Positions 2,722 to 46,430 of a DNA stretch of 64,000 nt are shown piece after piece. Positions within the stretch are counted from its first letter, which is position 1. Each line of letters starts with the position of its first letter. A program made the translations under genes and the position numbers. Origin of the DNA: Squalus acanthias (taxonomy: Eukaryota); the NCBI GenBank assembly GCA_030390025.1, contig CM059432.1, forward strand, positions 41,852,001 through 41,916,000, given 5' to 3'. The notes under the pieces were generated by a model that worked only from the letters and a program-made list of their open reading frames with translations, was not told the origin of the DNA and did no database searches.

Positions 2722-3008
2722 CTGAAGGAAACCATGGAAACCACTCAGAATTTTTAACACCTTTATTGGATCTCCTCTTAACCTTTTCTATTCTAGTGAG
2801 AAGAGCCCCAATTTCTCCAGTCATTCCTAGTAAGTGAAGCTTCTCATCTGTGATATCATCTTAGTAAATTTCTTCTATACCCTCTCTAAGGCCTTGACAT
2901 TGTTTCTTAGAAAGGGGCCCAAAATTGGGCACAATATTTTAATTGCTGCCTAATCAATGATTTGTATAGATTGAAGCATCTTTTATACTCTATGTCCATA
3001 TTTATAAC

Positions 3009-3478
3009 GCGGAGATGCCGGTGTTGGACTGGGGTGGACAAAATTGAGAGGTCGCACAACACCAGGTTATAGTCCAACAGTTTTATTTTAAATCACAAGC
3101 TTTCGGAGTTACAACTCCTTCGTCGGGTGAAGTGAGGAGATACAGAATTGTCAAAGCATATATAGGTAGAGAACAATGCATGTGTAACTTACAATTGCAG
3201 ACAACTGAATTCAATCATCCTGACTGTTTATCTGCCGAGGTGTGATAAAGTTAATCAGGTCAGCCAGGAAGGTACCACATCAAAGACATAGCAAGATACA
3301 ACTGAGACAATGAAGTGGAATCGCATGGGGTCTAACGTGTCAAAAGCTGCCGTCTGTATGTAAAACGATTAACTTTAAAATTTTTACTTTTTTACTGGGA
3401 ATCACATCTGTGAACAAGCCAACGACGACTCGAGTCCGGATCACGTCATGTATCGTGACATAAACCCAAGACACCTAG
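3009..3478 (-). mobile_element. Penelope-like element 3' end / pseudo-LTR with hammerhead-like motif
   Basis: Same terminal sequence as 24679 and 30062; retains the last codons (GFMSRY) of the GIY-YIG ORF seen at 25077. Confidence 0.75.
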
Positions 3479-3587
3479 GATCACACAATTTTTCTTACAA
3501 CCATATCCACTTGTTCTTCCACGTTTAAAGATTTGCATATCTGAAGCCTAAAGTGTCTCTGATCTTCAACTCCTTCAAAAGACTTAC

Positions 3588-18944: not shown

Positions 18945-19244
18945 CTTAAGAAAATCAAAAACTCCATATTCAGCAATTTTCATTTCAATATACTCTTGAG
19001 TGGTAATGTTTTGAATCATCAATCAAACTGAGTTCATCCAAATGATTTAAAAATGCCTAATTTCTGTCAAAGTTGCAAATCAATAGTTTAAACACACACC
19101 CCAAATACAGTATCCTCGATTAAATACAATACCCCTTCAATGCAATATCCAGAGCTTTAAACAATTTCAATTGTCAGCAGAACACAATAGCTCACTGGTG
19201 TTATATTGAACAACAACTCTTCTCACCAATGCTTTAAATTTGTT

Positions 19245-19590
19245 TTTAAATTCATTCCTGGGATGTGGGCGTCGCTGGCAAGGCCAGCATTTATTGTCCA
19301 TCCCTAATTGCCCTTGAGAAGGTGGTGGTGAGCCGCCTTCTTGAACCGCTACAGTCCATGTGGTGAAGGTACTCTGACAGTGCTGTTAGGGAGGGAGTTC
19401 CAGGATTTTGACCCAGCAACTATGATGAAACGCCGATATACTTCCAAGTCAGGATAGTGTGTGACTTGCAGGTGGTGGTGTTCTCATGCGCCTCTAGGTG
19501 GTAGAGGTTACAGGTTTGGGAGGTGCTGTTGAAGAAGCCTTGGCAAGTTGCTGCAGTGCATCTTGTAGATGGTACACACTGCAGCTGCGC
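19245..19590 (-). mobile_element. Family A LINE 3' tail
   Basis: Reverse complement of the 23630-23950 segment. Confidence 0.85.
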
Positions 19591-19799
19591 AGTGCATCGA
19601 GGACTCCGAAACGGAGCACATTAAACAGTTTAAATGCTCCCAGTTTAAAACTGTCCAATGCTTCCTAATTCTGCTGCTCAACCTCTCTATTCAGTGCATT
19701 GCTCAGCCTCTTAAAGTGCCAATGAGCAAACTGACCATAATCCATTACAGACAGAAAATAATCTGCCATCTCTCTAAAACTTGCATCAGATTTGTTTAT

Positions 19800-20505
19800 C
19801 TTTGGTGTACACGTCCACAGAGCCCTGAAGGTAGCAGGACAAGTAGATAAGGTGGTGAAGAAGGCATACGGGATACTTCCCTTTATTAGTCGAGGCATAG
19901 AATACAAGAGCAGAGGGTTTATGCTTGAATTGCATAAAACACTAGTCAGGCCACAGCTACAGTACTGCGTACAGTTCTGGTCACATTACAGGAAAGATGT
20001 GATTGCACTAGAGAGGGTACAGATGAGATTTACATGGATGTTGCCAGGGCTGGAAAATTGTAGCTATGAGGAAAGATTGGATAGGCTGGGGTTGTTTTTT
20101 TTGGAACAGAGGAGGCGGAGGGGAGACTTAATTAAGGTGTATAAAATTATGAGGGGTCTAGGTAGAGTGGATAGGAAGGACCCATTTCCCTTAGCAGAGA
20201 GGTCAATAACCAGGGGGCATAGATTTAAAGTAATTGGTAGAAGAATAAGAGAGGAGTTGAGGAGAACTTTTTTCATCCAGAGGGTGGTAGGCGTCTGGAA
20301 CTCATTGCCTGAAAGGATGGTAGAGGCAGAAACGCCATCACATTTAAAAAGTACTTGGATATGCACTTGAAGTGTCATAACCTACAAGGCTATGGACCAA
20401 GAGATGGAAAGTGGGTTTAGGCTGGATAACTCTTTTTCGGCCGGCAGACACGATGGGCCGAATGGCCTCCTTCTGTGGCGTAAATTTCTATGATTCTATG
20501 ATTCT
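19800..20505 (+). mobile_element. CR1 LINE 3' end
   Basis: LVRPQLQYCVQFWS and RGDLIKVYKIM motifs; (ATTCTATG)n tail. Confidence 0.9.
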
Positions 20506-20719
20506 TACATAAGCACAGCTGCCATTGTTGCACAATTGTGATTTTGGAGTGAGTGTACTTAGCAGGTGAAGGGCTAGCCATCTTCCAGGTTTAAATATTT
20601 TCTGCAAAGCCTGAAAAGCTGAGAACAATAGGGATTGGATGATTATTGTTAGGTTAGTACCATTTGGATTCAGAAGTCCAGGAATTAATAAGTACAATTA
20701 TAATGGGAAATCAAAGACT

Positions 20720-23700
20720 CGGGAATGGTAGCATAGTGGTTATGTTACTGGACTTGCAATCCAGAGACCTAGACTAATGATCTGGAGACGTGAGTTCAAA
20801 ATCCCACCACGGCAGCTGAAGAATTTAAATTCAGTTAATTAAATAAATCTGGAATAAAAGGCTTATAATGGTAACCATGTCGTAAAAACCCATCTGGTTC
20901 ACTAATATCCTTTAGGGAAGGAAATCTACGATCCTTACCTGGTTTGGCCTGTATATGACTCCAGACCTACAATGTGGTTGACTCTTAACTGCCCTCTGAA
21001 ATGGCCTAACAAGCCACTCAGTTGTAAAAAACTGCTGAGAAAAACAGTAAGAATAAAACCAGACGGACCACCCGGCATTCACCTCAGCACCGGCTACGGA
21101 CATGACAACGGCACACACAGCCCAGTCGACCCTGCAAAGTCCTTCTCACCAACATCTGGGACTTGTGCCAAAAGTGGGAGCGCTGTCCCACAGACTCATC
21201 ATACCTCTCAGCCAAACTCCTCCAGCAGCATCCCTGGGTATGTCCTGTCCCTCCGGCAGGACAGATGCACCAGGGGTGGTGACACAGTGGTATACAGACG
21301 GGAAGGAGTGGCCCTGGGAGAGTCCTCAACACTGACTCCGGGCTTCAGGTCAAGCTTGGGCAAGGAAACCTCCTGCTGATTACCACCTACCGTCCTCCCT
21401 CAGCCGATGAATCAGTACTCCTCCATGTTGAACACCACTTGGAAGAAGTACTGAGAGTAGCAAGGGCATAGAATTTACTCTGGGTGGGGGACTTCAATGT
21501 CCATCACCAAGAGTGGCTCGGTAGCACCACTACTGACCGAGCTGGCCGAGTCCTGAAGGACATAGCTGCCAATCTGGGCCTGCGACATGTGTTGAGGGAA
21601 AAACCTACTTGTTGCAGATGCATCTGTCCATGACAGCATTGGTAGCAGTGACCACTGCACAGTCATTGTGGAGATGAAGGCCCGTCTTCACACTGAGGAT
21701 ACCCTCCATCGTGTTCTGTGGCACTACCGCCGTGCTAAATGGGATAGATCTAGCAGCTCAAAACTGGGCATCCATGAGGTGCTGTGGGGCAGCAGCAGAA
21801 TTGTATTCCACCACAATCTGTAACCTCATGGTCTGGCATATACCTCACTCTACCATTACCATCAAGCCAGGGGGCCTACCATGGTTCAATAAGGAGTGTA
21901 GAATAGCATGCCAGGAGCAGCACCAGGCATACCTAAAAATGCGGTGCCAACCTGGGGAAGCTGCAAAACAGGATTACATGCATGCTAAAAAGCGGAAGCA
22001 GCATGCTATAGACAAAGCTAAGCGATCATACGATCAATGGATCAGATCAAAGCTCTGCAGTCCTGCCACATCCAGTTGTGAATTGTGGTGGACAATTAAA
22101 CAACTAACGGGAGGAGGAGGCTCCAGAATATCGCCATCCTCAATGATGGTGGAGCCCAGCACATGAGTGCAAAAGACAAAGCTGAAGCGTTTGCAACCAT
22201 CTTCAGCCAGAAGTGCCGAGTGGATAATCCATATCGGCCTACTACTGAGGTCCCCAGCACCACAGAAGCTAATCTTCAGCCAATTCGATTCACTCCATGT
22301 GATATCAAGAAACTCCGAAAGCTCGTGATTTCAAATAAAACTGTTGGACTATAACCTGGTGTTGTGCGACTTCTCATTTTTATATCAAGAAACGGCTGAG
22401 CGCACTGGATACAGCAAACAAAGGCTGTGGGCCCCGACAACATCCCGGCTATAGTGCTGAAGACTTGTGCTCCAGAACTAGCCGCACCTCTAGCCAAGCT
22501 GTTCCAGTGCAGCTATAACACTGGCATCTATCTGCCAATGTGGAAAACTGCCCAGGAATGTCCTGTCCACAAAAAGCAGGACAAATCCAATCCAGCCAAT
22601 TACCACCGCATCAGTCTACTCTCAATCATCAGCAAAGTGATGGAAGGTGTCGTCGACAGTGCTATCAAGCAGCACTTACTCACCAATAACCTGCTCACTG
22701 ATGCCCAGTTTGGGTTCCGCCAGGACCACTCGGCTCCAGCCCTCATTACAGCCTTGGTACAAACATGGACAAAAGAGCTGAATTCCAGAGGTGAGGTGAA
22801 AACGACTGCCCTTGACATCAAGGCAGCATTTGACTGAGTGTGGCATCAAGGAGCCCTAGTAAAACTGAAGTCAATGGGAATCGGAGGGGAAACTCTCCAC
22901 GGCTGGAGTCATACCGAGCACAAAGGAAGTTGGTTGTGGTGATTGGACGTCAATCATCACAGCCCCAGGACAACGCTGCAGGAGTTCCTCAGGGCAGTGT
23001 CCTAGGCCCAACCATCTTCAGCTGCTTCATCAATAACCTTCCCTCCATCATAAGGTCAGAAGTGGGGATGTTCGCTGATGACTCCACAGTGTTCAGTGCC
23101 ATTCGCAACTCCTCAGATAATGAAGCAGTTCATGCCCGCATACAGCAAGACCTGGACGACATTCAGGCTTGGACTGATAAGCGGCAGGTAACATTCGCGC
23201 CACACAAGTGCTAGGAAATGACTATCTCCAACAAGCGAGCGTCTAACCATCGACCCTTGACATTCAACGGCATTACCATCGGCAAAGCCCCCACCATCAA
23301 TATCCTGGGGGGGGTCACCATTGACCAGAAACTTAACTGGACCAGCCACATAAATACTGTGGCAACAAGAGCGGGTCAGAGGCTGATTATTCTGCGGCGA
23401 GTGTCTCACCTCCTAACTCCCCAAAGCCTTTCCACCATCTACAAGGCACAAGTCAGAAGTGTGATGGAATACTCTCCACTTGCCTGGATGAGTGCAGCTC
23501 CAACAACACTCAAGAAGCTCGACACCATCCAGGATAAAGCAGCCCGCTTGATTGACACCCCATCCACCACCTTAAATTTTCACTCCCTCCACCACCGGCG
23601 TACCGTGGCTGCAGTGTGTACCATCTACAAGATGCACTGCAGCAACTCGCCAAGGCTTCTTCAGCAGCACCTCCCAAACCCGCAACCTCTACCACCTAGA

Positions 23701-23958
23701 AGGACAAGGGCAGCAGGCGCATGGGAACACCACCACCTCCAAGTTCCCCTCCAAGTCACACACCATCCTGACTTGGAAGTATATCGCCGTTCCTTCATCA
23801 TCGCTGGGTCAAAACCCTGGAACTCCCTCCCTTCACCACACGGACTGCAGCAGTTCAAGAAGGCGGCTCACCACCACCTTCTCAAGGGCAACTAGGGATG
23901 GGCAATAAACGCTGACCTTGCCAGCAACGCCTACATCCCATGAACTAATAAAAAAAAG
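20720..23958 (+). mobile_element. Near full-length family A LINE: tRNA-like head, APE endonuclease, RT, A-tail
   Basis: A-box tagcatagtgg and B-box gagttcaaaatcc at the 5' end; APE motifs YRPP, GDFNVHH and SDH; RT motifs through FADD; A-tail at about 23950; many frameshifts. Confidence 0.85.
22314..22381 (+). mobile_element. 68-bp Penelope 3'-terminal insertion
   Basis: Matches the pseudo-LTR end (tccgaaagct...gcgacttctcattttt); flanked by a 12-bp direct repeat atatcaagaaac (22302-22313 and 22382-22393). Confidence 0.8.
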
Positions 23959-24199
23959 TTTGAATCTCCAGGCATTCAGGTTAACCAGCCATGGATAAAC
24001 CCGGTTTGATTGTATATCATTAACAATAAAACCAAATAAACATTTTCATAGTTTCATCAAAACTAAGGTTAATTCACAGAGCTGAAAAGTATTTTTCTTT
24101 CATGAAGTGCTTTAATAGTACTATATTACCACCCATTTACAACACTGCTGTTTGATAATTCTACAAAGGAAATTTAATTCAGTCAACAAAACACCAATT

Positions 24200-24678
24200 T
24201 AAAAAAAAGTTGATTTATCTAGCACCTTATCATATCTTATAAGCATCCAAGGCACTTCACAGACAATGAATTGCTTTGAAGTGCAATGCCTGTTACGTAG
24301 GCAAATGAGACAGTATTTTTATACACAGCCAAGATTACATTAACAGTAATTAAATAAATAACCCGTTAATTTATTTTGTATCATCTTGGTTAAGATGTTG
24401 CCTTTTGAAGGGAGAAATGTTGGTCAGGACACTGGAAAGATGACCTATTCTTCTTCAAATAGTCACATGAAATCTAACACATCCACCTGAACATACAGAC
24501 AGGGCCTCAGTTTGACATCTCACCAAAAAGACTGGGCTTCTAACAATGCAGCAATATCTCAGTATTCTGCAAATTATTCTCCTTAAGAATTGCTTGTTTT
24601 CAATAATGGCAAGGGGTGATCTGAGTTTCCTTTTCAAAACACAAACCTCAGTATTGCACTTCAGTGTCAAATTAGATT
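24200..24678 (-). mobile_element. Old degenerate Deu-SINE
   Basis: Diverged similarity to 2267-2721 (atccacctga..cagacagggcctcagttt). Confidence 0.6.
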
Positions 24679-25690
24679 ATGATGCGGAGATGCCGGCGTT
24701 GGACTGGGGTGGACAAAAATGAGAAGTCGCACAACACCAGGTTATAGTCCAACAGATTTATTTAAAATTACAAGCTTTCGGAGCTATCCTGCCCCTTCTT
24801 CAGGTAAAGTTACACTGAGTGAATCTACAAAAGTTCACAGAATATAAACACAGATACTACAGAGATACAATCTTTCCTTACATCAAAGACACACCAAGAG
24901 CACAGCCAAGACAATGAGATGTGTCCCAGGGGGTCCAACGTGTCAAATCCTGCTGTCTGTAGCAGATCTCGCTCCATATCCCTTCCTCTCTCTCCGTCCT
25001 TTTTGGGGTTTGTTTTTTGTGTTTGTTTTTTTGTGTTTGTTTTTTAAAAACTGGAAAGACAGAAAACGATGTCAAGTCACGTTCTGTAGCGTGACATGAA
25101 CCCGATATCCCTATTGAGGCCGTCCTCATGAGTGCGGAACTTGGCTATCAGTTTCTGCTCGATGATTTTGCGTTGTCGTGTGTCTCGAAGGTCGCCTTGG
25201 AGAACGCTAACCCGCAGATCCGAGGCTGAATGCCCTTGACTGCTGAAGTGTTCCCCGACTGGGAAGCAACTATCCTGGCTGGCGATTGTTGCGCGGTGTC
25301 CGTTCATACGTTGTCTCAGTGTCTGCATGGTCTCGCCGATGTACCATGCTCTGGGGCATCCTTTCCTGCAACGTATCAGGTAGACAACGTTGGCCGAGTC
25401 ACATGAGTATGTACCATGTACCTGGTGGGTAGTGTCCTCACGTGTGATGACGGTATCTGTGTTCATGATCTGGCATGTCTTGCAGAGGTTGCCGTGGCAG
25501 GGTTGTGTGGTGTCGTGGTCGCTGTTCTCCTGACAGCTGGGTAATTTGCTGCGGACGATGGTACTTTTGAGGTTAGGCGGCTGCTTGAAGGCGAGTAGTG
25601 GAGGTGTGGGGATGGCCTTAGCAAGGTGTTCGTCATCATCGATGACATGTTGAAGGCTGCGAAGAACATGGCGTAGTTTCTCCGCTCCTT
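24679..25690 (-). mobile_element. 5'-truncated Penelope-like retroelement with GIY-YIG endonuclease ORF (25077-25690) and pseudo-LTR
   Basis: Cys/His linker (CHGNLCKTC), NVVYLIRC...WYIGET...LRQRMNGHR and GLNRD motifs; uninterrupted frame of about 200 codons. Confidence 0.9.
24768..24807 (-). ncRNA. Minimal hammerhead-like motif
   Basis: TTAC-CTGAAGA-A-GGGGC-AGGATA-GCTCC-GAAA-GC-TT-GTAA on the minus strand. Confidence 0.6.
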
Positions 25691-27394
25691 TGCCGCACGA
25701 CAACAGAAGAGTGTGGAGGGAGGTGGCTCAGCACGTCTCCTCCAGGATCATGGTGCCCAGGACCCATACTCAATGTCGCAAAAGTTCAACGACCTCACTC
25801 GGGTCGTCAGGGTGTGTGGCTTTTTTTCAATACCTCTCCATCCCTCCATTTCAACCTCACTCTATGGCCAGCAGGTCTAAAAACTCCAATGCCCAACACT
25901 CATCCAACACCTATGGCCCTCTCATGAAACACACACGCACATTCCACACCTTGCATATAGTAAGGGCTATTCAACTATGGGAGGCACATCAGGCAAGACC
26001 ATGGCTGCATACATTAAGGACTATTCAATTGTGGGAGGCACATCAGGCAAGACCATGGCTGTATATTTACTCAGACGCTGTCCTTTTTCTTGCAGGCCAA
26101 GCAATCTCATAATAGGAGACAGCAGCAACGGACGGGTGGAGGGCAGCCTCAGCTGCAACCCCTCAGTGATCTTGAGGCGCATGTCCACAGGATTGTGGCA
26201 AGCCAGGTGATCGGTCCCGTTGCCCCTGGAGAGGCCGACCCCGTTCGGGACAGCAATGGTAAGGTCATCAGCTTTCTCTCCTCTCTCATTCCACTTGTCC
26301 CTCACAACACCAGCCTTTGACACTTTCAATCCAACGTACTAAATCGCTGCACTCCTTCCTCCCTTACTGTCCCCCTGTCCTCACACTAAAGCCACTCTTG
26401 TACCTCCCTGCTTTCAGATGGTGATTCACCAGCTGAGGAGACGGGCCCTCAAGCTGCCAGTGGGAGCAAAGCCGCAGGCGAGGAGGAAGAGGAAGCCGGA
26501 GCATCAGCACCACCCTCTCCCGAGGAAGCCCATGCCCACACTGGGACCACGTCTTCCCTGGAGGGGAGCAGGGGGGAAGGGTCTGATGAGGGTGAAGCTC
26601 CAGGACCCAGTGGGCTGCAGCAACGCACTGTGGCTAGGGAAGCTCTGGGGCCTTCTCCCCGGAGGGAGAGTAGGCCAGCAAGTTCTGCTGCATTGGACGC
26701 AGAGGAGGAGCGGCTCATCGCTGAAATGAACACCCAGGCGGTGGGCATGCACACTCAGCTCATGGGTGCAGTGGGAAGGGTGCCTGATTGCATTGATGCA
26801 CTGGCAAGGAGTCTGGAGCATTACGCTGTAGCACAGGCGGATGCCACGCTAATGCTTAGTGCTGCAATTCAGTCACTGCCTGCCGTGATCCAATCTCAGA
26901 CTGGTCTCATGCAGACTCAGATTAAGGCCACGCAAGCACTGACTGCTGCCATCCTCGATGGTTCGGACACATTTCCCCGGGGCTCTCACTGCGCCGCAGC
27001 AGGCCAGCAATCTGTGCTCCAGCAGTTTGCTCCGGATGCTGAGGTGCTGCCCCGTGGGAGTGCCAGTGTGTCGGTCGAGCAGGGAGTTGCTGTCCTCTCT
27101 CAAGATGACAGCATTCCTGCTGCCACCACTGTCACTTCCCCATTGCACTTGCCACCGCCTGTAGCCCAGGCTGCTGCCGCCCATGCAGAGTTGGTGCAGT
27201 CTGCAGCAGGGCCCTCCAGGCCCAGAGCTGGTCGAGGCCGTCCTTCAAGGGCATCTGTAGTCTCAGCTTCTGACAATCAGCAGCCTTCCACCAGCCTTGC
27301 TGCAGCCACTGGGGCCCCATTACGGAGGAGCAGTAGGGTGGGAAGGGGGGAAGTGCGCAAGGGAAGGAGATCACCCTCGAAGGGCAAAAAGTAG
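25690..27394 (+). CDS. Harbinger Myb/SANT-like partner protein, spliced (about 25690-25811, 26096-26258, 26418-27394), 5'-truncated
   Basis: W.EVA....S...PRT..QCRK-KFNDL (1-nt frameshift), then RRQQQRTGGG. GT-AG introns put exons 2 and 3 in one open frame ending in a basic tail (RKGRRSPSKGKK). Confidence 0.8.
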
Positions 27395-27705
27395 GAGGTG
27401 TGACGAAATGTTGGTCAATTTTTTATTAAAGGCCGAGGTTCGTGTTCAAACTTTGGTTTAGTGTTTTGGACATTATCTCCAGGTTGTGAGAACCAGTTAT
27501 GTTAATGAATGATCTTTTGTGGTTGTTTCTATTAGTTTGTCATGAAGAAATGACACACACAGAGTTTGTAAAATAAAAAAGTTTTTGTATTCAAAATGTA
27601 CAGGTTTGGCCTTTGGAATCATTGCTGCCTTGGCCGGCTTTGGGGTTGCGGGTTGCTTTCATTCATGTTGTTCTCCATGCCAGAAGCCATTACCTCAGTA
27701 GGGGC

Positions 27706-28866
27706 CTAGAAGCGGCTTGTTATCAGCTGTTGACGGACAGCCCTTGCAGTTTCAACATTGTGGGCCTCCCTCCCGCCTTGGTGCTGCTGCTGATCATCCT
27801 CCTCCTCTTCCTCCTCCTCCTCCAGTGGTGCTCCAAGGTCTGGTGGCATTGGCTGGGTCCTGAGGATTGCCAGGTTATGAAGCATGCAGCACACAACTAT
27901 GAAGAGGGAGACTCACTCAGACGAGTACTGCAGGGCTCCTCCTGAGTGGTCCAGACAGCGGAACCATTGCTTGAGCACGCCGGTCGTCTGCTCAATGAAG
28001 TTCCTGGTGGCGAGATGGCTCTCATTGTACCGCAGCTCAGCAGGGGTGTTGGGGTTACGGAGCGGTGTCATCAGCCAGGTGCACAGTGGATAACCCTTGT
28101 CCCCGAGGAGCCAACCACTTGGTTGATGCGGTGCCTGGAAAAGTTCTGGCACAGCAGTCTGGCGCAGGATGAAAGCATCGTGGCTGCTGCCAGGATAGCG
28201 GGCATTAACAGCGAGTATCAGCTGTCTGTGGTCACAGACCAACTGGACGTTTAAGGAGTGGAACCCTTTGCAGTTTCGGAAAACCTCTGCATTCTCATGC
28301 AGTGCCCTCAATGCCACATGCGTGCAGTCAATGGCGCCCTGCACCATGGGGAAGCCCGCTATCCTCGCAAAGCCCAATGTGCGTTCATGCTGTTTAGCCC
28401 GGGTCATCGGGAAAGAGATGTACTGGTGTCTCCTTTTATAGAGGGCATTTGTGACCTGACGGATACAGCAATGGACCGCGAACTGGGAGATATTGGCAAT
28501 GTCCCCAGTAGCTGCTTGAAAGGAGCCGGTGGCATAAAAATTCAGAGCCACTGTGACCTTCACTGCCACCGACAGAGACGTCCTGGTTCTCAGTTGAGGC
28601 TGCAGATCTGGCTGCAGCAGGTGGCAGAGCTCAGTGACCACCTCCTTGCTGAAGCGCAGCCTGCGCAAACACTGCTCCTCAGACAAATGAATGTAGGAGA
28701 ATTGTTCCCGGAATACCCTGGGAGGGTAAGGTCTCCTGTGCAGAGGCCTGTTGGCCCTCCTCCGTCTGGCCATGAATGCCACTCTCTCTCTGCGTCTCTG
28801 TTGCCTCCGATTCTGCAGGCGCAGGACGACGCCCCGAATCAGTGCAGCCCCCGAGTCTCTTGGCAA
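27706..28866 (-). pseudogene. HARBI1-like DDE transposase with one frameshift near 27915 and no clear ATG
   Basis: GAIDCTHV, GFHSLNVQLVCD, YPGSSHDAFIL, WLLGDKGYP and IEQTTGVLK motifs; C-terminal CCMLHN and acidic tail lie in a second frame. Confidence 0.9.
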
Positions 28867-30061
28867 TCAAAGTAATGAAGGTCAAATCCAAAAGAACCTG
28901 CAAAGTGATGCTCAGTAGCCAAAACTACATCACACAGCGTTGACTCTATGCAGAAGTCTCTCTATCTCTCTCTCTCTCAGAATCTCTCTCTCTCTCAGAA
29001 TGAGTGGTGCAAAAAAAGTCCGGGTCCCATCCGGGGTGCCACCAGGGCGTTGCATGCTCAACTGACGTCATGCTCTGCGGGCGCAGGAGATCGGGGCGGT
29101 AAACTTTTGCGCTGCCGCAAAAACTCTAGTCAATTTCGTGAGCGGCGTAAACATCGCCACGCCCGGGCACTAGTTGCTTTGCGCCCCATTAGCACCCTCT
29201 ATGGATGCTAACAGGAGGCGCTAGCCAACCAAATTTTTCCCCCATGGTCTCTTACCCAGACTCCAGATAACATTATCCGGCGTCATTACAAATCTCAAAG
29301 TTTCCTCATCAGCTTATACAATTAACATTTGCCTGCAGTGTGGTGGAAGTATCCATGCTGGACAGCTTGCAATGTGCTTGGCCATCACCAACTGCTTAAT
29401 TCAACTACTCATATAAGGGGTTTTGGCAAAGAGACTTGCCATTAGAATGCCCACAACCTGGGGTGTTGAGAAACAAGCTGGAGTAGGCCAGAGCATTCCC
29501 CTCAAGGGAATCATTTCCCCCTTTCCACAAATTTTGATGCTGGACCTCACACATGGGCTAATGGAACCTCTTCCACTGCATGCCTAGAAATTCCAAACAA
29601 TGAAGGAGAATTGTTTGGAAAGACCTTTTATACACCACAAGCTTAAACTGAAATGGAACTGAACTACACTGTAACAGATCACTGAAAGAGCAAATTAGGT
29701 TAACTTATGCACCATTCTTTTCTTCTTCCATGTAGGGAAATACATTGGCTCCATTCAGTTGAAGCCTAAGAATTTGCCGTGTATGGGAACACAGTAATCA
29801 AGAGCTCGAGGTGAAATTAGTTTGACCAGTCACAAAAGTAATGCGCGGAACAGGCTCGAGGGGTTCAATGGCCTACTATAAGAACATAAGACCATAAGAA
29901 ATAGGAGCAGGAGTAGGCCATTCGGCCCATCGAGCCTGCTCCACCATTCAATATGATCATGGCTGATCTCCTACCTCAACTCCACTTTCCTGCACTATCC
30001 CCATATCCCTTGATTCCCTTAATATCCAAAAATCTATCGATCTCTGTCTTGAATATACTCA

Positions 30062-30342
30062 TGATGCGGAGATGCCGGCGTTGGACTGGGGTGGACAAAA
30101 AATGAGAAGTCGCACAACACCAGGTTATAGTCCAACAGATTTATTTAAAATTACAAGCTTTCGGAGCTATCGCCCCTTCCTCAGGTAAAGTTACAATGAG
30201 TGAATCTACAAAAGTTCTGTGAACTTTTGTAGATTCACTCATTGTAACTTTACCTGAGGAAGGGGCGATAGCTCCGAAAGCTTGTAATTTTAAATAAATC
30301 TGTTGGACTATAACCTGGTGTTGTGCGACTTCTCATTTTTTG
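30062..30342. repeat. Penelope-derived perfect hairpin insertion
   Basis: Arms 30096-30217 and 30221-30342 are exact reverse complements with loop TGT; flanking direct repeat ttgaatatactca. Confidence 0.92.
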
Positions 30343-31150
30343 AATATACTCAACAACTGAGCCTCCACAGCTCTCTAGGGTAGAGAATTCCAAAGATTCA
30401 CCAGCCTCTGAGTGAAGAATTTTCTCCTCATCTCAGTCCTAAATGGCCGACCCCTTATTCTGAGACTATGACCCCTGGTTCTAGACTCCCCAGCCAGGGG
30501 AAACATCCTCCCTGCATCTACCCTGTCAAGCCCTGTAAGAATTTTGTATGTTTCAATGAGATCACGTCTCATTCTTTTAAACTCTAGAGAATATAGGCCT
30601 AGTCTACTCAATCTCTCCTCATAGTACAATCCCCCCAACCCAGGAATCCATCTGGTGAACCTTCGTTGCACTCCCTCTATGGCAAGTATATCCTTCCTTA
30701 GGTAAGGAGACCAAAACTGTACACAATACTCCAGATGTGGTCTCACCAGGGCCCTATATAATTGCAGTAAGACGTCTTTACTCTTATACTCAAATTCTCT
30801 TGTAATAAAGGCCAACATACTATTTGCATTCCTAATTGCTTGCTGTACCTGCATGTTAACTTTCAGTGATTCGTGTACAAGGACACCCAGGTCCCTCTGA
30901 ACACCAACGTTTCCCAATCTCTCACCATTTAAAAAATACTCTGCTTTTCTAATTTTCCAACAAAGTGGATAACTTCACATTTCTCTACATTATATTCCAT
31001 TTGCCATGTTCTTGCCCACTCACTTAGCCTGTCTATAGCCCCTTGAAGCCTCTTTGCATCCTCCTCACAATTTACATTCCCACCTAGCTTTGTATCATCA
31101 GCAAATTTGGATATATTACATTTGGTCCCCTCATCCAAATCATTGATTAC

Positions 31151-31996
31151 GGGCGCGATCTTGCCAGCCCTGGGGAGGCGGGTATGGAGGCGGGACTGCT
31201 GGGAAAATGGTAGAATTTGGGGGCAGGTGCCCAACCCGCCCCCAACCCACCTCTGTGCCATCTTGCCAGGAGGCGGGTAGCCGTCCCGCGCCGGGTCCCG
31301 TCTCCTTGGAGGCGGGAAGGGGTTACAGCCACTTAACTGCTTGTTAACAGGTAATTAACAGGCAGATAAGAAGATTATCCCCATTTTTCCCACACAAGTG
31401 CGGGCTTCCCAAAGGCTCCGAACCCCACCAGGGTCACCGAGGCGAGCAGTGGGTCTGCGGGGGTCGGAGGGGTCCAAAAGTGTGCTGTGGAGGTAAGTGA
31501 TGGGTGCAAGTGTGGAGAGATGAGTATCTGAGGTAAGTGGAAAGTGTTAAAAAAAGTGTACTTACCTTTGTTTCTTCCTGCAGGCTTCAATCTGTGTGTG
31601 TGCGGAGAGTCTCGCACCTCCGCGGCCGAGATGACAGATGGCCGTTGCATTCTCCAATGCAACAACCATCTCATTTCTGCAAAAGAAAGAGGTTTGATGA
31701 GGTCTTGAATTCAAGAACTCATCAAACTACAGAGAATGTCACTGTTTGACAGCTTCACAGAGCTGTCAAACGATGACAATTCATCTGTCAAAAATTTTTG
31801 ACAGATGAAACGTCATACGTTGACGTTCTCTGCAACCGGCTTTCCCTTAATTGGCCTGCTAAGCCCGCTGGGCGGGCTTAACAAGGTCAATCAAGGGAAA
31901 ATAGCGTGGGTTGGCCACAAATCGATGGCGGCAGGACATCGACCCGCCAAGCAGCAGTCCCGCCTCCAACGCGCCCCCATTGACAAAATCACCCCC
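31151..31996. mobile_element. MITE (Harbinger-type) nested in CR1
   Basis: Imperfect TIRs gggcgcgatcttgcca / tgacaaaatcaccccc; splits the CR1 sequence just before NDLDEG; TSD not clean. Confidence 0.7.
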
Positions 31997-32721
31997 ATAG
32001 ATTGTGAATAGCTCAGGCCCAAACACTGATCCTTACTGTACCCCACTAGTTACAGCCTGCCAACCCGAAAATGACCCGTTTATTCCTACTGTCTGTTTTC
32101 TGTCCGTTAAACAATCCTCAATCCATGCTGGTATATTACCACCAATCCCATGAGCCCTAATTTTGTTTAATAACCTCTTGTGTAGCATCTTATCGAATGC
32201 CTTCTGAAAATCCAAATACACCATATCCACTGATCCCCCCTTATCTATTCTGCTAATTACAACCTCAAAAAACTCGAACAGATTTGTCAAACATGATTTC
32301 CCTTTCATAAATCCGTGTTGATTCTACCCAATCCTATTATTATTTTCTCAGTGCCCTGTTACCACGTCCTTAATAATAGATTCTAGCATTTTCCCTACTA
32401 CTGATGTCAGGCTAACTGGTCTGTAGTTTCCCGTTTTCTCTCTCCTCCTTTCTTAAATAGTGGGGTTACATTTGCTACCTTCCAATCTGCGGGAACCGTT
32501 CTAGAATCTATGGAATTTGGAAGATGAGAACTAATGCACCCACTATCTCTATAGCCACCGCTTTCAAAACCCTACATTGTAGGCCATCAGTCCCATTAAT
32601 TTCGCCAGTACTTTTTTTTACTTACACTAATTTCTTTCAGTTCCTCATTCTCGCTAGACCCTTGGCTCTCCACTATTTCCGGGAAGTTTTTTGCGTCTTC
32701 TTCTGTGAAGACAGACACAAA

Positions 32722-33429
32722 GGAGTCTAAATTCGGTTGATTTGCGCCTCTCGTTAGCGCACTAAGAGGGCGCAAATCAACTAGCGCCTGGGCGCGGCGC
32801 CGCTAACGCCTCCCGCGAAATTCAGCGGGAGGTTAGCGGCGGCACTAACCGTTAGCGCTGCCGGCGATGACGTCATCGCCATGTGCAGCGCCCCGCTCGC
32901 GCCCCGACTGTAATATTGGGTGGCACCCCCCGACTTACTGCCAGACGCTATGTCCGCCGGGGTCAGGGGGGGCGGTGCTAGTTAAAGGGGAGGTGGTGGA
33001 CGGCCATTTTTGTTGCTGGCCGCCTGCCAGCACTTGCCCCCGTTGCTGTCCCCGGCCCCCGGGAAGCCCCCCCCGCGGGGTGCCGGCTGCTCTCCGTGAG
33101 CCCGGCACTCCTCTTTAATGCCAGGCTTGTTTGCTGGCACTCCCGATCCCTGGTGGCCCAGCTGGGTGCCGGGACACGCTGCGCCAGGCCCCTCCCCTTT
33201 AATAAGGGGAGGAAGGCCTGCAGTACCGTGGCGCTGCGGCACATAGCACCGCAATATTGGCTTGCAGCGCCCCAAGAGGGACGCGGGGCGCTTCCAGAAG
33301 CGCCCCTCCTCCCTCTCGGGGCGCTACCTGTGAAAATCGGCCGCAGGGGCGCTAACTTTTTCGGGCCACTAAAATTAGTGCCCCGGCGAAGGTAGCACCC
33401 CAAAGGGAGCGCTACCCAATTTTTACCCC
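32722..33429 (-). mobile_element. Harbinger MITE nested in CR1, 708 bp
   Basis: TSD AAA restores CR1 gacacaaagtattt; inverted sibling of 40654-41413. Confidence 0.88.
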
Positions 33430-34380
33430 AAAGTATTTGTTTAATTTCTCTGCCATTTCCTTATTCCGCATTATAATTTCTCCTGTCTCAGCCTGTAAGG
33501 GACCCACATTTACTTTCGCTAATCTTTTCCTTTCTACATACCTATAGAAGCTTTTACAGTCTTTTTATGTCTCTCACTAGTTTACTCTCATATTCTATTT
33601 TCCCATTCTTTAGCAATTTCTTGGTCCTCCTTTGCTGAATTCTAAAATCCTCCTCAGGCTTACTACTCTTTTGGCAACATTATAAGCCTCTTCCTTTGAT
33701 CTAATACTGTCTTTAACTTCTCTTGTTAGCCACGGTTGGACCACTTTTCCTGTGGGGTTTCTGTGCCTTAAAGGAATGTATATTTGTTGTAAATTGTGTA
33801 TTAATTCTTTAAATGCTAGCCATTGCTTGTCTACTGTCATACCTTTTAATGTCGTTTCCCAATATACCTTAGCCTACTCGCCCCTCATACCTACGTCGTT
33901 TGCTTTGTTTAGATTTAAGACCCTGGTTTCGGATTTAACTAAATGACTTTCAAACTCAATATAAAATTCTATCATATTATGGTCACTCTTCCCTGAATGC
34001 CCCTTTACTATAAGGTTATTAATGAACCCTTTCTCATTGCACAATACTAGATCTAAAATAGCCTGTTTCCCTAGTTGGTTCCTCAACATACTGATTTAGA
34101 AAACTATCTTGCCTACATACCATGAATTGGTCCTCCACACTATTACTGCAAATTTGGTTTGCCCAGTCTATATGTAGATTAAAGTCCCCCATGAGTACTG
34201 TATTACCCTTGTTACATGCACCTCTAATTTTCTGATTTATACACTGCCCTACATTACAAACACTGTTTGGGGGCCTATAAACAACTCCCACCAATGTTTT
34301 CTGCCCCTTGCTGTTTCTTAGCTCCACCCAAACTGATTCTACTTCTTGATTTTCAGAGCTAAGATCCTTTCTCTCTACTG

Positions 34381-36970
34381 TCTTCATCCTAGGGTTCTAA
34401 AAGAGGTGGCTGAAGAGATAGTGGATGTATTGGTTTTGATCTTCCAAAATTCCCTAGATTCTGGAGAGGTCCCAGCGGATTGGAACGGCAATAGATTGGG
34501 AAAAGGGGAAGTGCAACGAGATCTGGGAGTCCTTGTGCACCAGTCGCTGAAGGTAAGCATGCAGGTGCAGCAGGCGGTTAAGAAGGAAAATGGTATGTTG
34601 GCCTTCACAGCAAGAGGATTCGAGTACAGGAGCAAGGATGTCTTGCTGCAGTTGTACAGGGCCTTGCTGAGACCACACCTTGAGTATTGTGTGCAGTTTT
34701 GGTCGCCTTATCTGAGGAAGGATGTTCTTGCCATGGAGGGAGTGCAGCAAAGATTCACCAGACTGATTCCTGGGATGGCAGGAATGACGTATGAAGAGAG
34801 ATTGGGTCGATTAGGCTTATATTCGCTAGAGTTTCGAAGAATGAGAGGGGATCTCATTGAAACTTATAAAATTCTAACAGGACTAGACAGACTAGATGCA
34901 GGAAGGATGTTCCCGATGGCGGGGGAGTCCAGAACCAGAGGTCACAGTCTAAGGATAAGGGGTAAGCCATTTAGGACAGAGATGAGGAGGAATTTCTTCA
35001 CCCAGAGAGTGGTGAACCTGTGGAATTCTCTACCACAGAAGGCAGTTGAGGCCAATTCATTAAATATATTCAAGAAGGAGATAGATATATTTCTTAAGGC
35101 TAAAGGGATCAAGGGATATGGGGAGAAAGCAGGGACAGGGTACTGAATTTGGATGATCAGCCATGATCTCATTAAATGGCGGAGCAGGCTCGAGGGGCCG
35201 AATGGCCTACTCCTGCTTCTATGCTTCTATGGAAGGTCGCAAATGTAACACCTCTATTCAAGAAAGGAGGGAGAGAAAAAACAGGGAACTACAGGCCAGT
35301 TAGCCTGACATCAGTTGTCAGGAAAATGCTGGAATCTATTGTTAAGGAAGTGGTATCCAGTCACTTAGAAAATCAAAACATGATTAAGAGTCAAAATGGT
35401 TTTATGAAAGGGAAATCATGTTTGACAAATTTATTAGAGTTTTTTGAGGATGTAACTAGCAGGGGAACCAATGGATGTAGTCTATTTGGATTTCCAAAAG
35501 GCATTCGATAAGGTGCCACATAACATTAGGGCTCATGGGGTTGGGGGTAATATAGTAGCATGGATAGAGGATTGGTTAACAGAGAGTAGGGATAAACGGA
35601 TCTTTTTCAGGTTGGCAGGCTGTAACTAGTGGGGTGCCGCAAGGATCAGTGTTGGGGCCTCAGCTATTTACAATCTATATTAATGACATAGATGAAGGGA
35701 CCGAGTATAATGTATCCAAGTTTGCTGATGATACAAAGCTAGGTGGGACAGTAAGCTGTGAGGAGAACACAAAGAGTCTGCAAAGGGATATAGATAGACT
35801 AAGTGAGTGGGCAGTAAGGTGGCAGATGGAGTATAATGTAGGGAAATGTGAGGTTATTCACTTTGGTAGGAAGAATAGAAAAACAGAATATTTTTTAAAT
35901 GGTGAGAAACTTTCAAATGTTGGTGTTCAGAGAGATTTAGGTGTCCTCGTGCAAGAAACACAGAAAGCTAGCATGCAGGTACAGCAAGCAATAAGGAAGG
36001 CAAATGGCATGTTGGCCTTTATTGCAAGGGGGTTCACACAGAATCCCCACAGTGCAGATAGAGGCCATTTCGGCCCATCGAGCCTGCACCGACACATATC
36101 CCACCCTATCCCCGTAACCCCACTTATTTAATCCCCCCCCTAACACTAAGGGTCAATTTATCATAGCCTATTAACCTAACCCGCACATCTTTGGACTGTG
36201 GGAGGAAACCGGAGCACCCGGAGGAAACCCACGCAGACACGGGGAGAATGTGCAAACTCCACACAGACAGTCACCCAAGGCCGGATTCGAACCCGGGTCC
36301 CTGGCGCTGTGAGGCAACAGTACTAACCACTATGCCACCGTGTTGCCGGGTTGGAGTATAGAATAAGGAAGTCTTGCTATAATTGTACAGGGCCTTGGCG
36401 AGACCACACCTGGAATACTGTGCACAGTTCTAGTCTTATTTAAGGAAGGATATACTTGCCTTGGAGGCGGTGCAACGAAGGTTCACTAGATTGATTCCTG
36501 GGATGAGAGGGCTGTCCTATGATGAGAGATTGTGTAGAATGGGCCTATACTCTCTGGAATTTAGAAGAATGAGAGGTAATCTCATTGAAACATACAAGAT
36601 TCTGAAGGGGATTGACAGGGTAGATGCTGAGAGGTTGTTTCCCCTGGCTGGAGTGTCTCGAACTAGGGGGCATAGTCTCAGGATAAGGGCTAGGCCATTT
36701 AAGACTGAGATGAGGAGGAATTTCTTCACTTAGAGGGTTGTGAATCTTTGGAATTCTCTGCCCCAGAGGGCTGTGGATGCTGAGTCTTTGAGTATATTCA
36801 AAGCTGAGATAGATAGATTTTTGGACTCTAGGGGAATCAAGGGATATGGAGATCGGGCGGGAAAGTGGAGTTGAAGTCGATGATCAGCCATGATCTTACT
36901 GAATGGCGGAGCAGGCTCGAAGGGCCATATGGCCTACTCCTGCTCTTACTTCTTATGTTCTTATGTTCTA
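34381..36970 (+). mobile_element. CR1 LINE fragment hosting a younger CR1 (34486-35229) and an HE1-like SINE
   Basis: Host RT reads EVPADW|KVANVT across the insertion; TSD TGGAA at 34481-34485 and 35230-35234. Confidence 0.88.
36035..36347 (-). mobile_element. V-domain tRNA SINE (HE1-like)
   Basis: tRNA head (tggcatagtggtt...gggttcgaatcc), V-domain gtgtggagtttgcacattctccccgtgtctgcgtgggtttcctccgggtgctccggtttcctcccac; TSD gggtt. Confidence 0.85.
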
Positions 36971-37222
36971 ACATTGTTGCTTCCCAATTCCTCCAATCCT
37001 ACAGTATGTGACTAGGAAGTGCTTGTGCCAACACTGGGTTCGTAGAACTGCTGGAGTTCTGCTTCACAATCATGGGAAGTCCCAACTTCATTACCACAAC
37101 ATTATGCAAATTGTTTCTTTTAAAGGAAAAAAAAGTAAATCATGTGTTAATTCACAATAGTAGCACATATTAGCACATCTATAAAACATCCGTGACTCAC
37201 AGCAGCACTGTGCAGTACATAC

Positions 37223-42639: not shown

Positions 42640-43392
42640 CACATTCAACGGATCATCCTCCGCCATTTCCATCAACTCCAGTGTGATCCCACCACCAAAC
42701 ACATCTCCCCCTCCCCTTTCAGCATTCTGAAGGGACTGCTCCCTCCGCGACACCCTGGTCCACTCCTCAATCACCCCCAACATCCCCTCCCCTTCCAACG
42801 GCACCTTCCGTGCAAGCGCAGGAGATGCAACACCTGCCCTTTTACCTCCTCCCTTTCCACCGTCCAGGGCCCCAAAAACTCCTTCCAGGTGAAACAGCGA
42901 TTTACTTGTACTTCTTGCAATTTAGTAAACTGTATTCGCTGCTCATGATGCAGTCTCCTCTACATTGGGGAGACCAAATGCAGATTGGGAGACCGCTTTG
43001 AGACTCAACTTCGAGTTCAACAATTTCAGACCATAACCTCTGCCCCTATTTTTGCACATGGCAGCAGTTGATGATTCTGTTATACCCATTTACACCTCTT
43101 CTAGACCTATCTTTTGTTTCTTTACTTGTCCAATTACCATCTCCTTTTGCTTTGTACATTCATACCTTTTGTCATTTAATCACTCCTGCCTTCCATCTTA
43201 TCGAGTCCCTCCCTTTTGTTCTTTCCTCCCCTCCCCCCTTTCCCTGCCCCTGCACTTGCTTAAAATCTGTTACATCTCTAACCTTTTCCAGTTCTGACAA
43301 AAGGTCATCGACCTGAAACATGAACTCTGTTTCTTTCTCCACAGATGCTGCCTGGCCTGCTGAGTATTTCCAGCATTTTCTGTTTTTATTAT
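42640..43392 (+). mobile_element. Second-family Penelope-like fragment (GIY-YIG remnant plus pseudo-LTR)
   Basis: CNTCP...FTC.S.NLV.CIRCS*C.LLYIGETK.RLGDRF; terminal block shared with 60605 and 63400. Confidence 0.8.
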
Positions 43393-44925: not shown

Positions 44926-46430
44926 CTTCATCACATCATTCCTCACACCCACTTACCTTGCAAGCGCTTCGCTTTCTATATACCTCCTCACATCCCCATC
45001 TATCCATCCACTACTGCCACTCACCCTCATCCTTAGGCCATGTCATGCCTCTCCCTCATAGTTAACCTCACCAAGTGCACTGCATCCATCCAGTTAACAC
45101 ATGCCATTACAGTCACTCATTGGCGTACTCTTTCCCTCGTTGCAAGAAAAGAAAGTGCAGAACACTCGGGAGAGGGAGAGGGAGAGAACCGGAGGTGGTC
45201 CTTCACAGATCTCACAGCTGACAACTGCAGAGGAGGAAGCGCTGGAGATCAGAGGCGTCTTGGCATTCCTGACCATCAGAAATAGGGAGGTAGGGACCTC
45301 CCAGCTACCTGGTGATAGAATTAAATATAATTGACCCACTTGTCATACAACACTCAGTCATGTTCACTTGATTTCAGCAGCGAATGAAATATGATCATCT
45401 TCATAATGATAAGTTGCAACATTCTTACCTTGCCAGTACTAATTCATATCTTTTCTCTCCGCCAGGGCCTTCATGTGTGCAGCAGCAGTCGGTGGACCTC
45501 GCGGACAATGAATCCTCAGAGGAGCTGATTCCTTCTGAGGGTGCACCATCCAAGGACTCGTGCTTACCATGCACAAAACGCAGATACTTGTACTTTGGTG
45601 GGACCAGTTAGATATTTGGGTTTTCACCTGGTGACTCACAAGTGCGCAAGAGCAGACAGTTGTAGCTGGGGCAGCTGTGGAGAATCCGCATTGGAGGGTG
45701 CAGCCCTCTCCAAGCTCTGCTCAGCTGGACACAGATGCTGGGGGCCATCGTGAAAAAGGATAATCATTGAGGGGCAGCAGAAAATCTGCGACGTACAAAC
45801 AGCCCTTCCACGCACACTGTCCACGATTGCAGAGAAAATGGAGGAGTCCACCTTAAGCATGAGTGGGTTGATGTCAAAGCATTGCAAGCATGTCGTCTTC
45901 CATGGATAGAGTGGCCAACTCGGTAGAACATCAATCGTGACAATAAAATTAGTCCATGCAGGCATTGACCACGGCCGTGCAGACTCTGGATGCCAACATG
46001 TCTGCCACCTTAAATAGGATGACAGACAACTTAGCCTTGACCTTGCAGCACCTCACTGATTTGCATCAAGCTGCTCTCCAGCAGAGTGGTAGGAGTGAAG
46101 TGCAGCTGGCATGAGAGGGATAATGGCGAAAGAGGACATGGAAGTGGGGACTCACTTAAAGTGCCCCCAGTTCTCACCCGTTGCCCCCCACCCCCTCAGT
46201 CAGTACCCGACATGCTGCCTCCTTTCCCGATGGCCGAGTCTGCCCCTGCACAGGTGCAGGTGGAGCTGTCTTTGGCGGAGCGCTCACGGGCTCCAACACC
46301 CAAAGGTGGTAGACCAAGAGCATCTCAGCAGTCAGAGCAGGAGTGAGAGCAGCCTGCTGATATCTCTGCTGAAGCCACAGGGTTCCATCACATAGGAGTG
46401 GTAGGAAAAGGAAGAGTAAAGCTTTGTAAT
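44926..46430 (+). mobile_element. Harbinger Myb-like gene 3' exons (sibling of 5580-7058)
   Basis: EKKVQNTRERERERTGGG and the downstream exon are collinear with the 5.6-7.0 kb copy. Confidence 0.8.

What the first reader, a model, noticed from the sequence alone, without database searches (positions are those of the whole stretch)
30049..30352. Perfect 122-bp-arm Penelope hairpin with a hammerhead motif on each strand in TMEM67 intron 3
Seen: 30096-30217 and 30221-30342 are exact reverse complements around a 3-nt loop. A 34-nt extra tail (30062-30095) is present on one side only, and a 13-bp direct repeat (ttgaatatactca) restores the host CR1. Each arm carries TTAC-CTGAGGA-A-GGGGC-GATA-GCTCC-GAAA-GC-TT-GTAA (30151-30188 minus, 30250-30287 plus). 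Established: Penelope-like elements form inverted terminal structures and carry minimal hammerheads. Inference: this is a very recent fold-back integration. TMEM67 pre-mRNA would form a long dsRNA here (an ADAR/Dicer substrate), which could also sequester its own ribozyme.
Basis: partly seen in the sequence, partly recalled or inferred. Interest (0 to 1): 0.75.

Follow-up and report, generated by a model that had tools for sequence, protein, structure and literature searches.

The report
Head-to-head Penelope retroelement stub in intron
This perfect hairpin in intron 3 of the TMEM67 gene is a short back-to-back insertion of two end pieces of an abundant Penelope-like jumping gene, an already described layout that likely formed when both cut strands of a near-symmetric DNA site each primed a copy of the element's RNA.

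Summary
In detail: 122-bp perfect arms, 3-nt loop, 34-nt one-sided tail, and a target duplication (12 bp, 13 with one shared T) that restores the host CR1-type LINE, in TMEM67 intron 3 (gene on the minus strand). A 97%-identical copy 5.4 kb away carries the same end behind a GIY-YIG endonuclease frame whose shark relatives (81-89%) include RT-bearing proteins, so the arms are pseudo-LTR ends of a Neptune/Nematis-type Penelope-like element. The motif meets the published minimal-hammerhead features and covaries across three window copies; cleavage is untested. Inverted ends, a one-sided tail, a duplication and junction palindromes are all published for this class. The apex lies on a native TTC-TGT-GAA mini-hairpin, and 15 of 25 listed arm-to-arm joints in public contigs are near-symmetric, so such hairpins look routine. 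Simple fold-back from the tail-primed copy does not fit the loop's polarity. 'Very recent' is only bounded (under 1.2% divergence); editing, small RNAs and polymorphism were not tested, and no listed contig crosses the apex. The one lead of value: the near-palindromic target appears to be hit in dozens of LINE copies. Ordinary member of a known kind.

The parts
30050..30061 (.). Left target-site duplication, 12 bp TGAATATACTCA (13 with the T at 30049); 10 of 12 positions self-complementary; lies in the C-terminal coding part of a CR1-type LINE on the minus strand
   Evidence: 0.5% of window 12-mers are as symmetric
30062..30095 (-). 34-nt 'tail' (3' extension of the pseudo-LTR), one side only; ends at ...CATCA|TG, possibly the element's start codon (inferred)
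   Evidence: same start in the copy at 24680; tail described in PMC3846280, PMC8557442, PMC11167929
30096..30217 (-). Left arm: pseudo-LTR end, sense on the minus strand (same sense as TMEM67)
   Evidence: 97% identical to 24680-24836 with the tail
30151..30188 (-). Minimal type I hammerhead motif, sense in the TMEM67 pre-mRNA; predicted buried in the duplex
30215..30223 (+). Apex TTC-TGT-GAA: a native 3-bp mini-hairpin of the element; native sense sequence runs 30215 onward, native antisense runs up to 30217
   Evidence: copy at 24836-24842; pieces 30185-30217 and 30215-30247
30221..30340 (+). Right arm: tail-less pseudo-LTR end, finishing after five T, the same end as the solo copy at 22313-22381
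30250..30287 (+). Second copy of the hammerhead motif (antisense to TMEM67)
30341..30352 (.). Right target-site duplication
29881..31147 (-). Host CR1-type LINE fragment interrupted by the insertion (class label recalled; paralogues at 36351-36969, 34493-35222, 57528-58485)
24680..25690 (-). Sister copy, 5'-truncated: GIY-YIG endonuclease frame with CX4CxxC linker and CCHH residues, 3' UTR, hammerhead, tail
   Evidence: (Pfam GIY-YIG E 4.8e-4, 20.8 bits, under the 22.6 cut-off)
22313..22381 (+). Solo 69-bp tail-less sister stub with an 11-12-bp duplication
3005..3585 (-). Diverged sister copy (88% over the arm) with tail, compensatory hammerhead stem changes and the last codons of the frame; far end not defined
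18945..37222 (-). TMEM67 intron 3 (about 18.3 kb) holding the insertion

Best explanation
The hairpin is the shortest form of an insertion of an endonuclease-bearing Penelope-like retroelement: two pseudo-LTR end pieces set head to head between a 12-bp target duplication, likely made in one event by two priming reactions. Most likely the element's RT-endonuclease, acting as a pair, nicked both strands of the near-palindromic site TGAATATACTCA 12 bases apart (inferred). One nick primed reverse transcription at the tail site and the other at the internal U-run 35 bases further in (inferred from the two start sites shown in vitro for another clade). Both copies stopped within a few bases of each other, probably at the 5' end of one short template RNA, and were joined through the 3-bp TTC/GAA match at the element's own mini-hairpin, each then templating the other's second strand (inferred). 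The hammerhead on each strand is a passenger: it is there twice because the end is there twice. In TMEM67 pre-mRNA the insert would form a 122-bp duplex deep in an 18-kb intron, with no shown effect. Identity as a Penelope stub about 0.95; this joining route about 0.6 against fold-back.
For: Shown: sister copy at 24680-25690 joins the same tail and arm (97%) to a GIY-YIG frame; 36 longer relatives of that frame, the best 89% identical and carrying RVT_1 upstream. Duplication proven against a paralogous LINE. The tail-less end stops after five T in two independent insertions, 30340 and 22381, and the tail begins at the same base in 30062 and 24680: two fixed start points. The apex sits on a native mini-hairpin. 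In contigs of independent runs 15 of 25 distinct listed arm-to-arm joints lie within 8 bases of symmetry (permutation p 0.00015), at different positions, so the two arms' lengths are coupled and the hairpin is rebuilt per insertion. Target 10 of 12 self-complementary. Literature: inverted pLTR, 31-bp tail on one side, 9-10-bp duplication and junction palindromes (PMC3846280, passages and Discussion); both strands cut and extended, two RT start sites bounding the tail, predicted dimer (PMC11167929, parts 1-2 of 4); 30-40-bp tail at one end with an inverted truncated copy (PMC8557442, passages).
Against: The junction alone cannot separate two-copy joining from fold-back. The joint lists are cut (667, 598, 30 and 24 rows not shown), some rows are near-duplicates, and fold-back chimeras made during library preparation could add symmetric joints at this family depth. 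No listed contig crosses the apex of this locus. The targets of the other two window copies are only 6 of 12 symmetric, which 16% of window 12-mers reach. The in vitro work is on a Poseidon element, a different clade. No full-length element is in the window, so the template's 5' end and the start codon at the tail end are unverified. Rfam found no hammerhead family here.
Confidence: 0.72

Rival explanations
1. Fold-back self-priming: the tail-less cDNA (or an antisense RNA) folds at TTC-ACA-GAA and copies itself; the other nick adds the tail and opens the hairpin.
For: The native loop is on the tail-less arm, as this route requires. Arms are identical, and symmetric joints are enriched. Self-priming was proposed for such palindromes in PMC3846280 (Discussion). 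The left arm has six A where the sister copies have five, which copying of one host base could give.
Against: It still needs a second priming event for the tail. The 3-bp stem is not stable alone as DNA (0.0 kcal/mol for 12- and 20-nt ends). The six-A variant with tail is common in contigs (pieces 30072-30108 and 30080-30118 at depth 779 and 1472 against 8.6 for the unique flank), so it is not diagnostic.
Confidence: 0.3
2. A non-autonomous hairpin mini-element (retrozyme- or MITE-like) that moves as a unit with this apex.
For: One asymmetric joint (30198 to 30289) has depth 3142 in run X1, about 365 times the unique flank, so some fixed junctions may be amplified or recurrent.
Against: Joints fall at many positions; contig pieces at this apex stop or start at the native limits; the three sister copies in the window are single-armed; the two motifs are on opposite strands, so no tandem ribozyme RNA results.
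Confidence: 0.05
3. Assembly or sequencing fold-back artefact.
For: Perfect arms; no listed contig piece crosses the apex in X1, X5 or X16.
Against: Different host sequence continues on each side and restores the LINE with an exact duplication; the tail is one-sided; both ends and the apex match biologically defined points of the family. Contigs drop rare forms beside high-copy ones, and X1 and X5 differ from the window at two flank bases, so they may be other haplotypes.
Confidence: 0.03
4. The hairpin has a selected host role in TMEM67 RNA (editing, small RNAs, splicing).
For: Predicted duplex of -220 kcal/mol; a branch-point-like CTCAT, pyrimidine run and CAG lie in gene sense at the arm-tail border.
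Against: The family is lineage-restricted (no cover of the arms in organism D at 93%); about half the window is repeats with many inverted pairs; the site is 6.9 kb and 11.1 kb from the flanking exons; no RNA evidence was obtained.
Confidence: 0.04

Closest known systems
Inverted-pLTR insertions of EN+ Penelope-like elements (Pen2a_Av and Pen2_Av of Adineta vaga, PMC3846280; general scheme in PMC8557442 Fig. 2 legend)
   Same: Head-to-head inverted pseudo-LTRs, 30-40-nt tail on one end, target duplication, palindrome at the inverted junction.
   Different: Here no ORF lies between the ends; arms are equal, giving a pure hairpin; duplication 12 bp against 8-10 bp.
Neptune/Nematis clades of C-terminal EN+ PLEs (PMC8557442)
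   Same: RT followed by CX2-5CxxC linker, GIY-YIG and CCHH in the sister copy and its relatives.
   Different: No tree was built, so Neptune against Nematis is open; the paper links the linker to microsatellite targets, whereas this site is a non-repetitive near-palindrome in a LINE.
PAc, Poseidon element of Anolis carolinensis (PMC11167929)
   Same: Two start points bounding the tail, AT-rich target, hammerhead in the pLTR.
   Different: Other clade (no linker finger); its ORF starts inside the hammerhead, while no ATG lies in this arm; its reported preference is a 3-base ATT motif.
Minimal type I hammerheads (min-HHR) of metazoan PLEs (PMC4209133)
   Same: CUGANGA and GAAA boxes, extra base after A9, G10.1-C11.1 pair, 4-bp helix I, no helix III, palindromic AAGCUU across 15.1-16.1.
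   Different: Helix II is 5 bp (7-8 in the Schistosoma examples); the two copies are on opposite strands, an arrangement the paper also noted at 100-700 bp; cleavage untested.

Membership tests
EN+ Penelope-like element (Neptune/Nematis type) | pLTR sequence lies directly 3' of a frame ending in a GIY-YIG endonuclease | tested here: met
   Copy 24680-25690, 97% identical to arm plus tail, follows a GIY-YIG frame (Pfam score just under cut-off)
EN+ Penelope-like element (Neptune/Nematis type) | RT and C-terminal endonuclease in one ORF | tested here: met
   Met through relatives: P0001 (89%), P0006, P0014, P0018 carry RVT_1 before the same C-terminus. The window copy itself is truncated before RT
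EN+ Penelope-like element (Neptune/Nematis type) | CX2-5CxxC linker and CCHH motif | tested here: met
   CHGNLCKTC, CRKGC, and two later H in the translation of 25080-25727; features from PMC8557442
EN+ Penelope-like element (Neptune/Nematis type) | RT groups with the Neptune clade in a tree | not tested
   No reference PLE set was on hand
EN+ Penelope-like element (Neptune/Nematis type) | Inverted 5'-truncated copy, optional 30-40-nt tail on one end, target duplication | tested here: met
Minimal hammerhead (min-HHR) | Core boxes, base between 9 and 10.1, G10.1-C11.1, palindromic 15.2-16.2, no helix III | tested here: met
   Read from the sequence against the features in PMC4209133
Minimal hammerhead (min-HHR) | Helices I and II kept by covariation | tested here: inconclusive
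   27 of 27 cells paired, 2 of 9 pairs with compensatory change, slid controls 22-48% paired; but only 3 sequences and 46 of 500 shuffles reach it
Minimal hammerhead (min-HHR) | Self-cleavage as a dimer or with the element's protein | not testable with these tools
   Needs an assay
Rfam hammerhead families | Score at the gathering threshold | tested here: not met
   0 matches in the window; no hammerhead among 20 matches up to E 10 at 30200-30360
Retrozyme / non-autonomous hairpin element | Same-strand tandem ribozymes or a fixed unit repeated at many loci | tested here: not met
   Motifs are on opposite strands; joints vary in position; genome-wide count not possible

The most novel reading that the evidence does not exclude
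This vertebrate Penelope-like element is a sequence-selective, two-headed inserter: it recognises a near-palindromic site, cuts both strands 12 bases apart and copies one RNA twice from the two tail-bounding start sites. The site in the CR1-type LINE would be a true hot spot: contig pieces across the host-tail junction stand at about 64 and 46 times the unique-flank depth in two samples, and tail-less ends join the same site by several different junctions. Stubs like this one would then be a genome-wide readout of the unsolved second-strand step, with loop polarity deciding between two-copy joining and fold-back.
Probability: 0.45. Interest if true: 0.5.

Novelty: new member of a known kind. 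Interest (0 to 1): 0.2.

Why it matters
As a single locus it matters little: layout, tail and ribozyme motif are published for the class, and earlier notes of this scan list many like it in this genome. Its use is as a clean data point on how Penelope-like elements finish an insertion, a step the in vitro paper leaves open: exact duplication, two fixed start points, an apex on a native mini-hairpin with readable loop polarity, and a symmetric target that seems to be reused. If counted over a genome, those features would test two-copy joining against fold-back and define a target motif.

Tried and rejected
No genome is held for this window, so copies were not counted. A 30-base family pattern found 0 loci in metagenome, viral and prokaryote collections. 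Rfam: nothing. Single-strand folds of the motif were no better than shuffles (z -1.15 and -0.87), as expected for so small a fold. Contigs laid at 93% and 100%: no listed piece crosses the apex or the right junction, and the empty-site forms seen (30048 to 30341; loose ends at 30061) cannot be told from paralogous LINE copies, so presence or polymorphism at this locus is unresolved; absence of cover is not evidence. The RNA-like run X16 covers native family sequence from 30215 but cannot show editing or strand. Six-A against five-A as a sign of host copying: rejected as non-diagnostic. The sister copy at 24680 as direct donor: rejected (4 differences in 156). A shared flanking motif among the four window targets: spacing was inconsistent, dropped. 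Duplications for the 24680 and 3005 copies were not found, bar one weak 11-of-12 match at 29691. In the joint count I dropped host-host, host-element and backward joints and one joint starting in the tail (30094). The exon-4 candidate did not hit meckelin. Paper searches for a palindromic or LINE-directed Penelope target and for head-to-head joining gave no paper describing it in the listings; PMC12910113 and PMC9977147 (passages) did not bear on it, except that new Chlamys insertions are also very short (median 128 bp). Supplements were not opened and may bear on the hammerhead and start-site comparisons.

Full report
Observation. The palindrome is real in the sequence: 30096-30217 and 30221-30342 are exact reverse complements around TGT, and nothing else in the window exceeds 15-bp perfect arms at loops up to 29 nt. 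The 34-nt segment 30062-30095 has no mirror. TTGAATATACTCA stands at 30049-30061 and 30340-30352. In a paralogous LINE copy the left-flank hit ends and the right-flank hit begins so that they overlap by exactly these 13 bases, so removing the insert restores the host. The repeat overlaps the right arm by three bases. I read it as a 12-bp duplication after five element T, because the solo tail-less copy at 22313-22381 also ends after five T.

Host gene. TMEM67 is on the minus strand. Three exons match meckelin 7FH1 residues 74-102, 105-135 and 164-192 with splice boundaries at 55595-55504, 37319-37223 and 12793-12727. A first exon begins at 61423 (found by a recalled motif). Of 15 phase-compatible candidates between exons 3 and 5, the one at 18944-18845 is 100 bp, has the best pyrimidine tract and the expected cysteine spacing, though it does not hit meckelin alone. 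The insert is thus in intron 3, 6.9 kb and 11.1 kb from the flanking exons.

Identity. Three sister copies lie in the window. The one at 24680 starts at the same tail base, is 97% identical through the arm and continues into a 3' UTR and a frame on the minus strand ending in a GIY-YIG domain (E 4.8e-4, just under Pfam's cut-off) with a CX4CxxC linker and CCHH residues. A search for longer relatives gave 36 proteins among 213 candidates; the best are from sharks (89%, 85%, 81%), and the four I scanned all carry RVT_1 upstream. By the features in PMC8557442 (passages) this is a C-terminal EN+ Penelope-like element of the Neptune or Nematis type; no tree was built.

Hammerhead. UUAC-CUGAGGA-A-GGGGC-GAUA-GCUCC-GAAA-GC-UU-GUAA has the core boxes, the extra base after A9, G10.1-C11.1, a 4-bp helix I, no helix III and the self-complementary AAGCUU needed for a dimer, the traits listed in PMC4209133 (parts 1-2 of 4). 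Over three window copies 27 of 27 cells pair, 2 of 9 pairs change on both sides, and slid controls pair at 22-48%; with three sequences 46 of 500 shuffles reach this, so it is suggestive only. Rfam has no match. That paper reports no cleavage of a single motif and low cleavage of multimers, and notes pairs on opposite strands; PMC11167929 (parts 1-2 of 4) found cleavage only with the element's protein and not needed for insertion in vitro. A motif on each strand is simply what a palindrome gives.

The layout is published. PMC3846280 (passages and Discussion) describes inverted pLTRs with a 31-bp tail on one of them, 8-10-bp duplications and palindromes at the head-to-head junction, and proposes self-priming. 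PMC8557442 gives the same scheme. PMC11167929 shows both target strands cut and extended and two RT start sites that bound the tail.

Mechanism. The sister copy shows that the element natively reads ATA-TTC-TGT-GAA-CTTTT at the apex, and contig pieces end at 30217 and begin at 30215. So the junction uses a 3-bp match at a native mini-hairpin, and the native loop belongs to the tail-less arm. Fold-back of the tail-primed copy would leave ACA on the plus strand, not TGT, so that simple route does not fit. Two routes remain: two cDNAs, primed at the two nicks from the tail and internal sites, ending together and joined through TTC/GAA; or fold-back of the tail-less cDNA with the tail added from the other nick. 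The 3-bp stem is not stable alone, and the second route needs the second priming anyway, so I favour the first at about 0.6. Arm lengths are coupled in the family: of 25 distinct arm-to-arm joints listed lie within 8 bases of symmetry (permutation p 0.00015), at different positions. The lists are cut to the best-supported rows, some rows are near-duplicates, and library chimeras cannot be excluded. All steps of the reaction are inferred; only the product is shown.

Target. The 12-mer is self-complementary at 10 of 12 positions, which 0.5% of window 12-mers reach; the other two window targets reach only 6. Contig pieces across the host-tail junction (30039-30076 in X1, 30041-30077 in X5) have depths 551 and 957 against 8.6 and 20.9 for the unique flank, ratios of about 64 and 46, and tail-less ends join the same base by three other junctions. 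These pieces are shorter than the tool's bridging rule of 31 letters a side, and depth is no exact copy number, so this is a lead. Earlier unchecked notes of this scan report the same kind of hot spot; they are not independent support, and I saw the depths before reading them. My paper searches listed nothing on a palindromic or LINE-directed target for this class.

Artefact and age. No listed contig crosses this apex, but contigs drop rare forms and X1 and X5 differ from the window at two flank bases. The exact duplication, one-sided tail and family-defined ends make an assembly artefact unlikely. Zero differences in 122 pairs bound divergence below 1.2% per arm at 95%. The arms have no cover in organism D at 93% and little inner-arm cover in organism B, in line with a young, lineage-restricted family; that does not date this copy.

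Host effect. On the minus strand the insert folds at -220 kcal/mol, mean arm pairing probability 0.99, and helix II of the ribozyme is predicted at 1e-16 to 1e-21. An ADAR substrate is plausible from general knowledge, but nothing here tests it, and about half the window is repetitive with other inverted pairs.

Verdict. A real, clean, ordinary insertion of a known class. Eight earlier notes on this genome describe like hairpins and mostly reach the same reading. Interest 0.2.

Noticed in passing
window:30039-30103 in runs X1 and X5: Host-tail junction pieces at about 64 and 46 times unique-flank depth, and tail-less ends joined at the same LINE base: a likely recurrent insertion site.
   Followed up: partly
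window:30182-30251, runs X1 and X5: At 100% likeness the inner arm has summed depth 37,000-105,000 in X1 but 9-1,530 in X5, both labelled organism A and alike at two flank variants; at 93% the gap is about 5-fold. Possibly a subfamily that differs strongly between individuals; X5 was read only to 55%.
   Followed up: no
joint 30198 to 30289 in run X1: One asymmetric inverted junction at depth 3142 (about 365 times the unique flank), not listed for X5 or X6: an amplified composite or a favoured junction.
   Followed up: no
window:30059-30110 (minus strand): The arm-tail border reads CTCAT, a pyrimidine run, CAG, then CCGCATCATG: like a splice acceptor followed by a start codon at the very end of the tail; the other two tailed copies also end in AT. 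In gene sense it could be a cryptic acceptor.
   Followed up: no
window:24763-24815 and 30151-30188 (minus strand): Two sense hammerhead motifs of one family lie 5.4 kb apart in TMEM67 intron 3; a dimer is conceivable but the second is predicted buried.
   Followed up: no
window:43292-43391, 46428-46502, 60605-60735, 63582-63709; 42808-43068: A second repeat family with hammerhead-like boxes (CTGAGGA...GAAAC) and a diverged GIY-YIG fragment (30% to P0001) just before the first copy: likely another Penelope-like family.
   Followed up: no
window:26390-28866: DDE_Tnp_4 transposase frame (27913-28866, E 4.5e-28) facing a second long frame (26390-27394): Harbinger-like element (label recalled) next to the truncated end of the sister copy.
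   Followed up: no
window:24668-24679 and 29691-29702: 11-of-12 match that could be the duplication of the 24680 copy if 4 kb were inserted later; chance is about as likely.
   Followed up: partly
window:58317-58368 and 59493-59544: 52-bp exact repeat inside a CR1-type LINE; unexplained.
   Followed up: no
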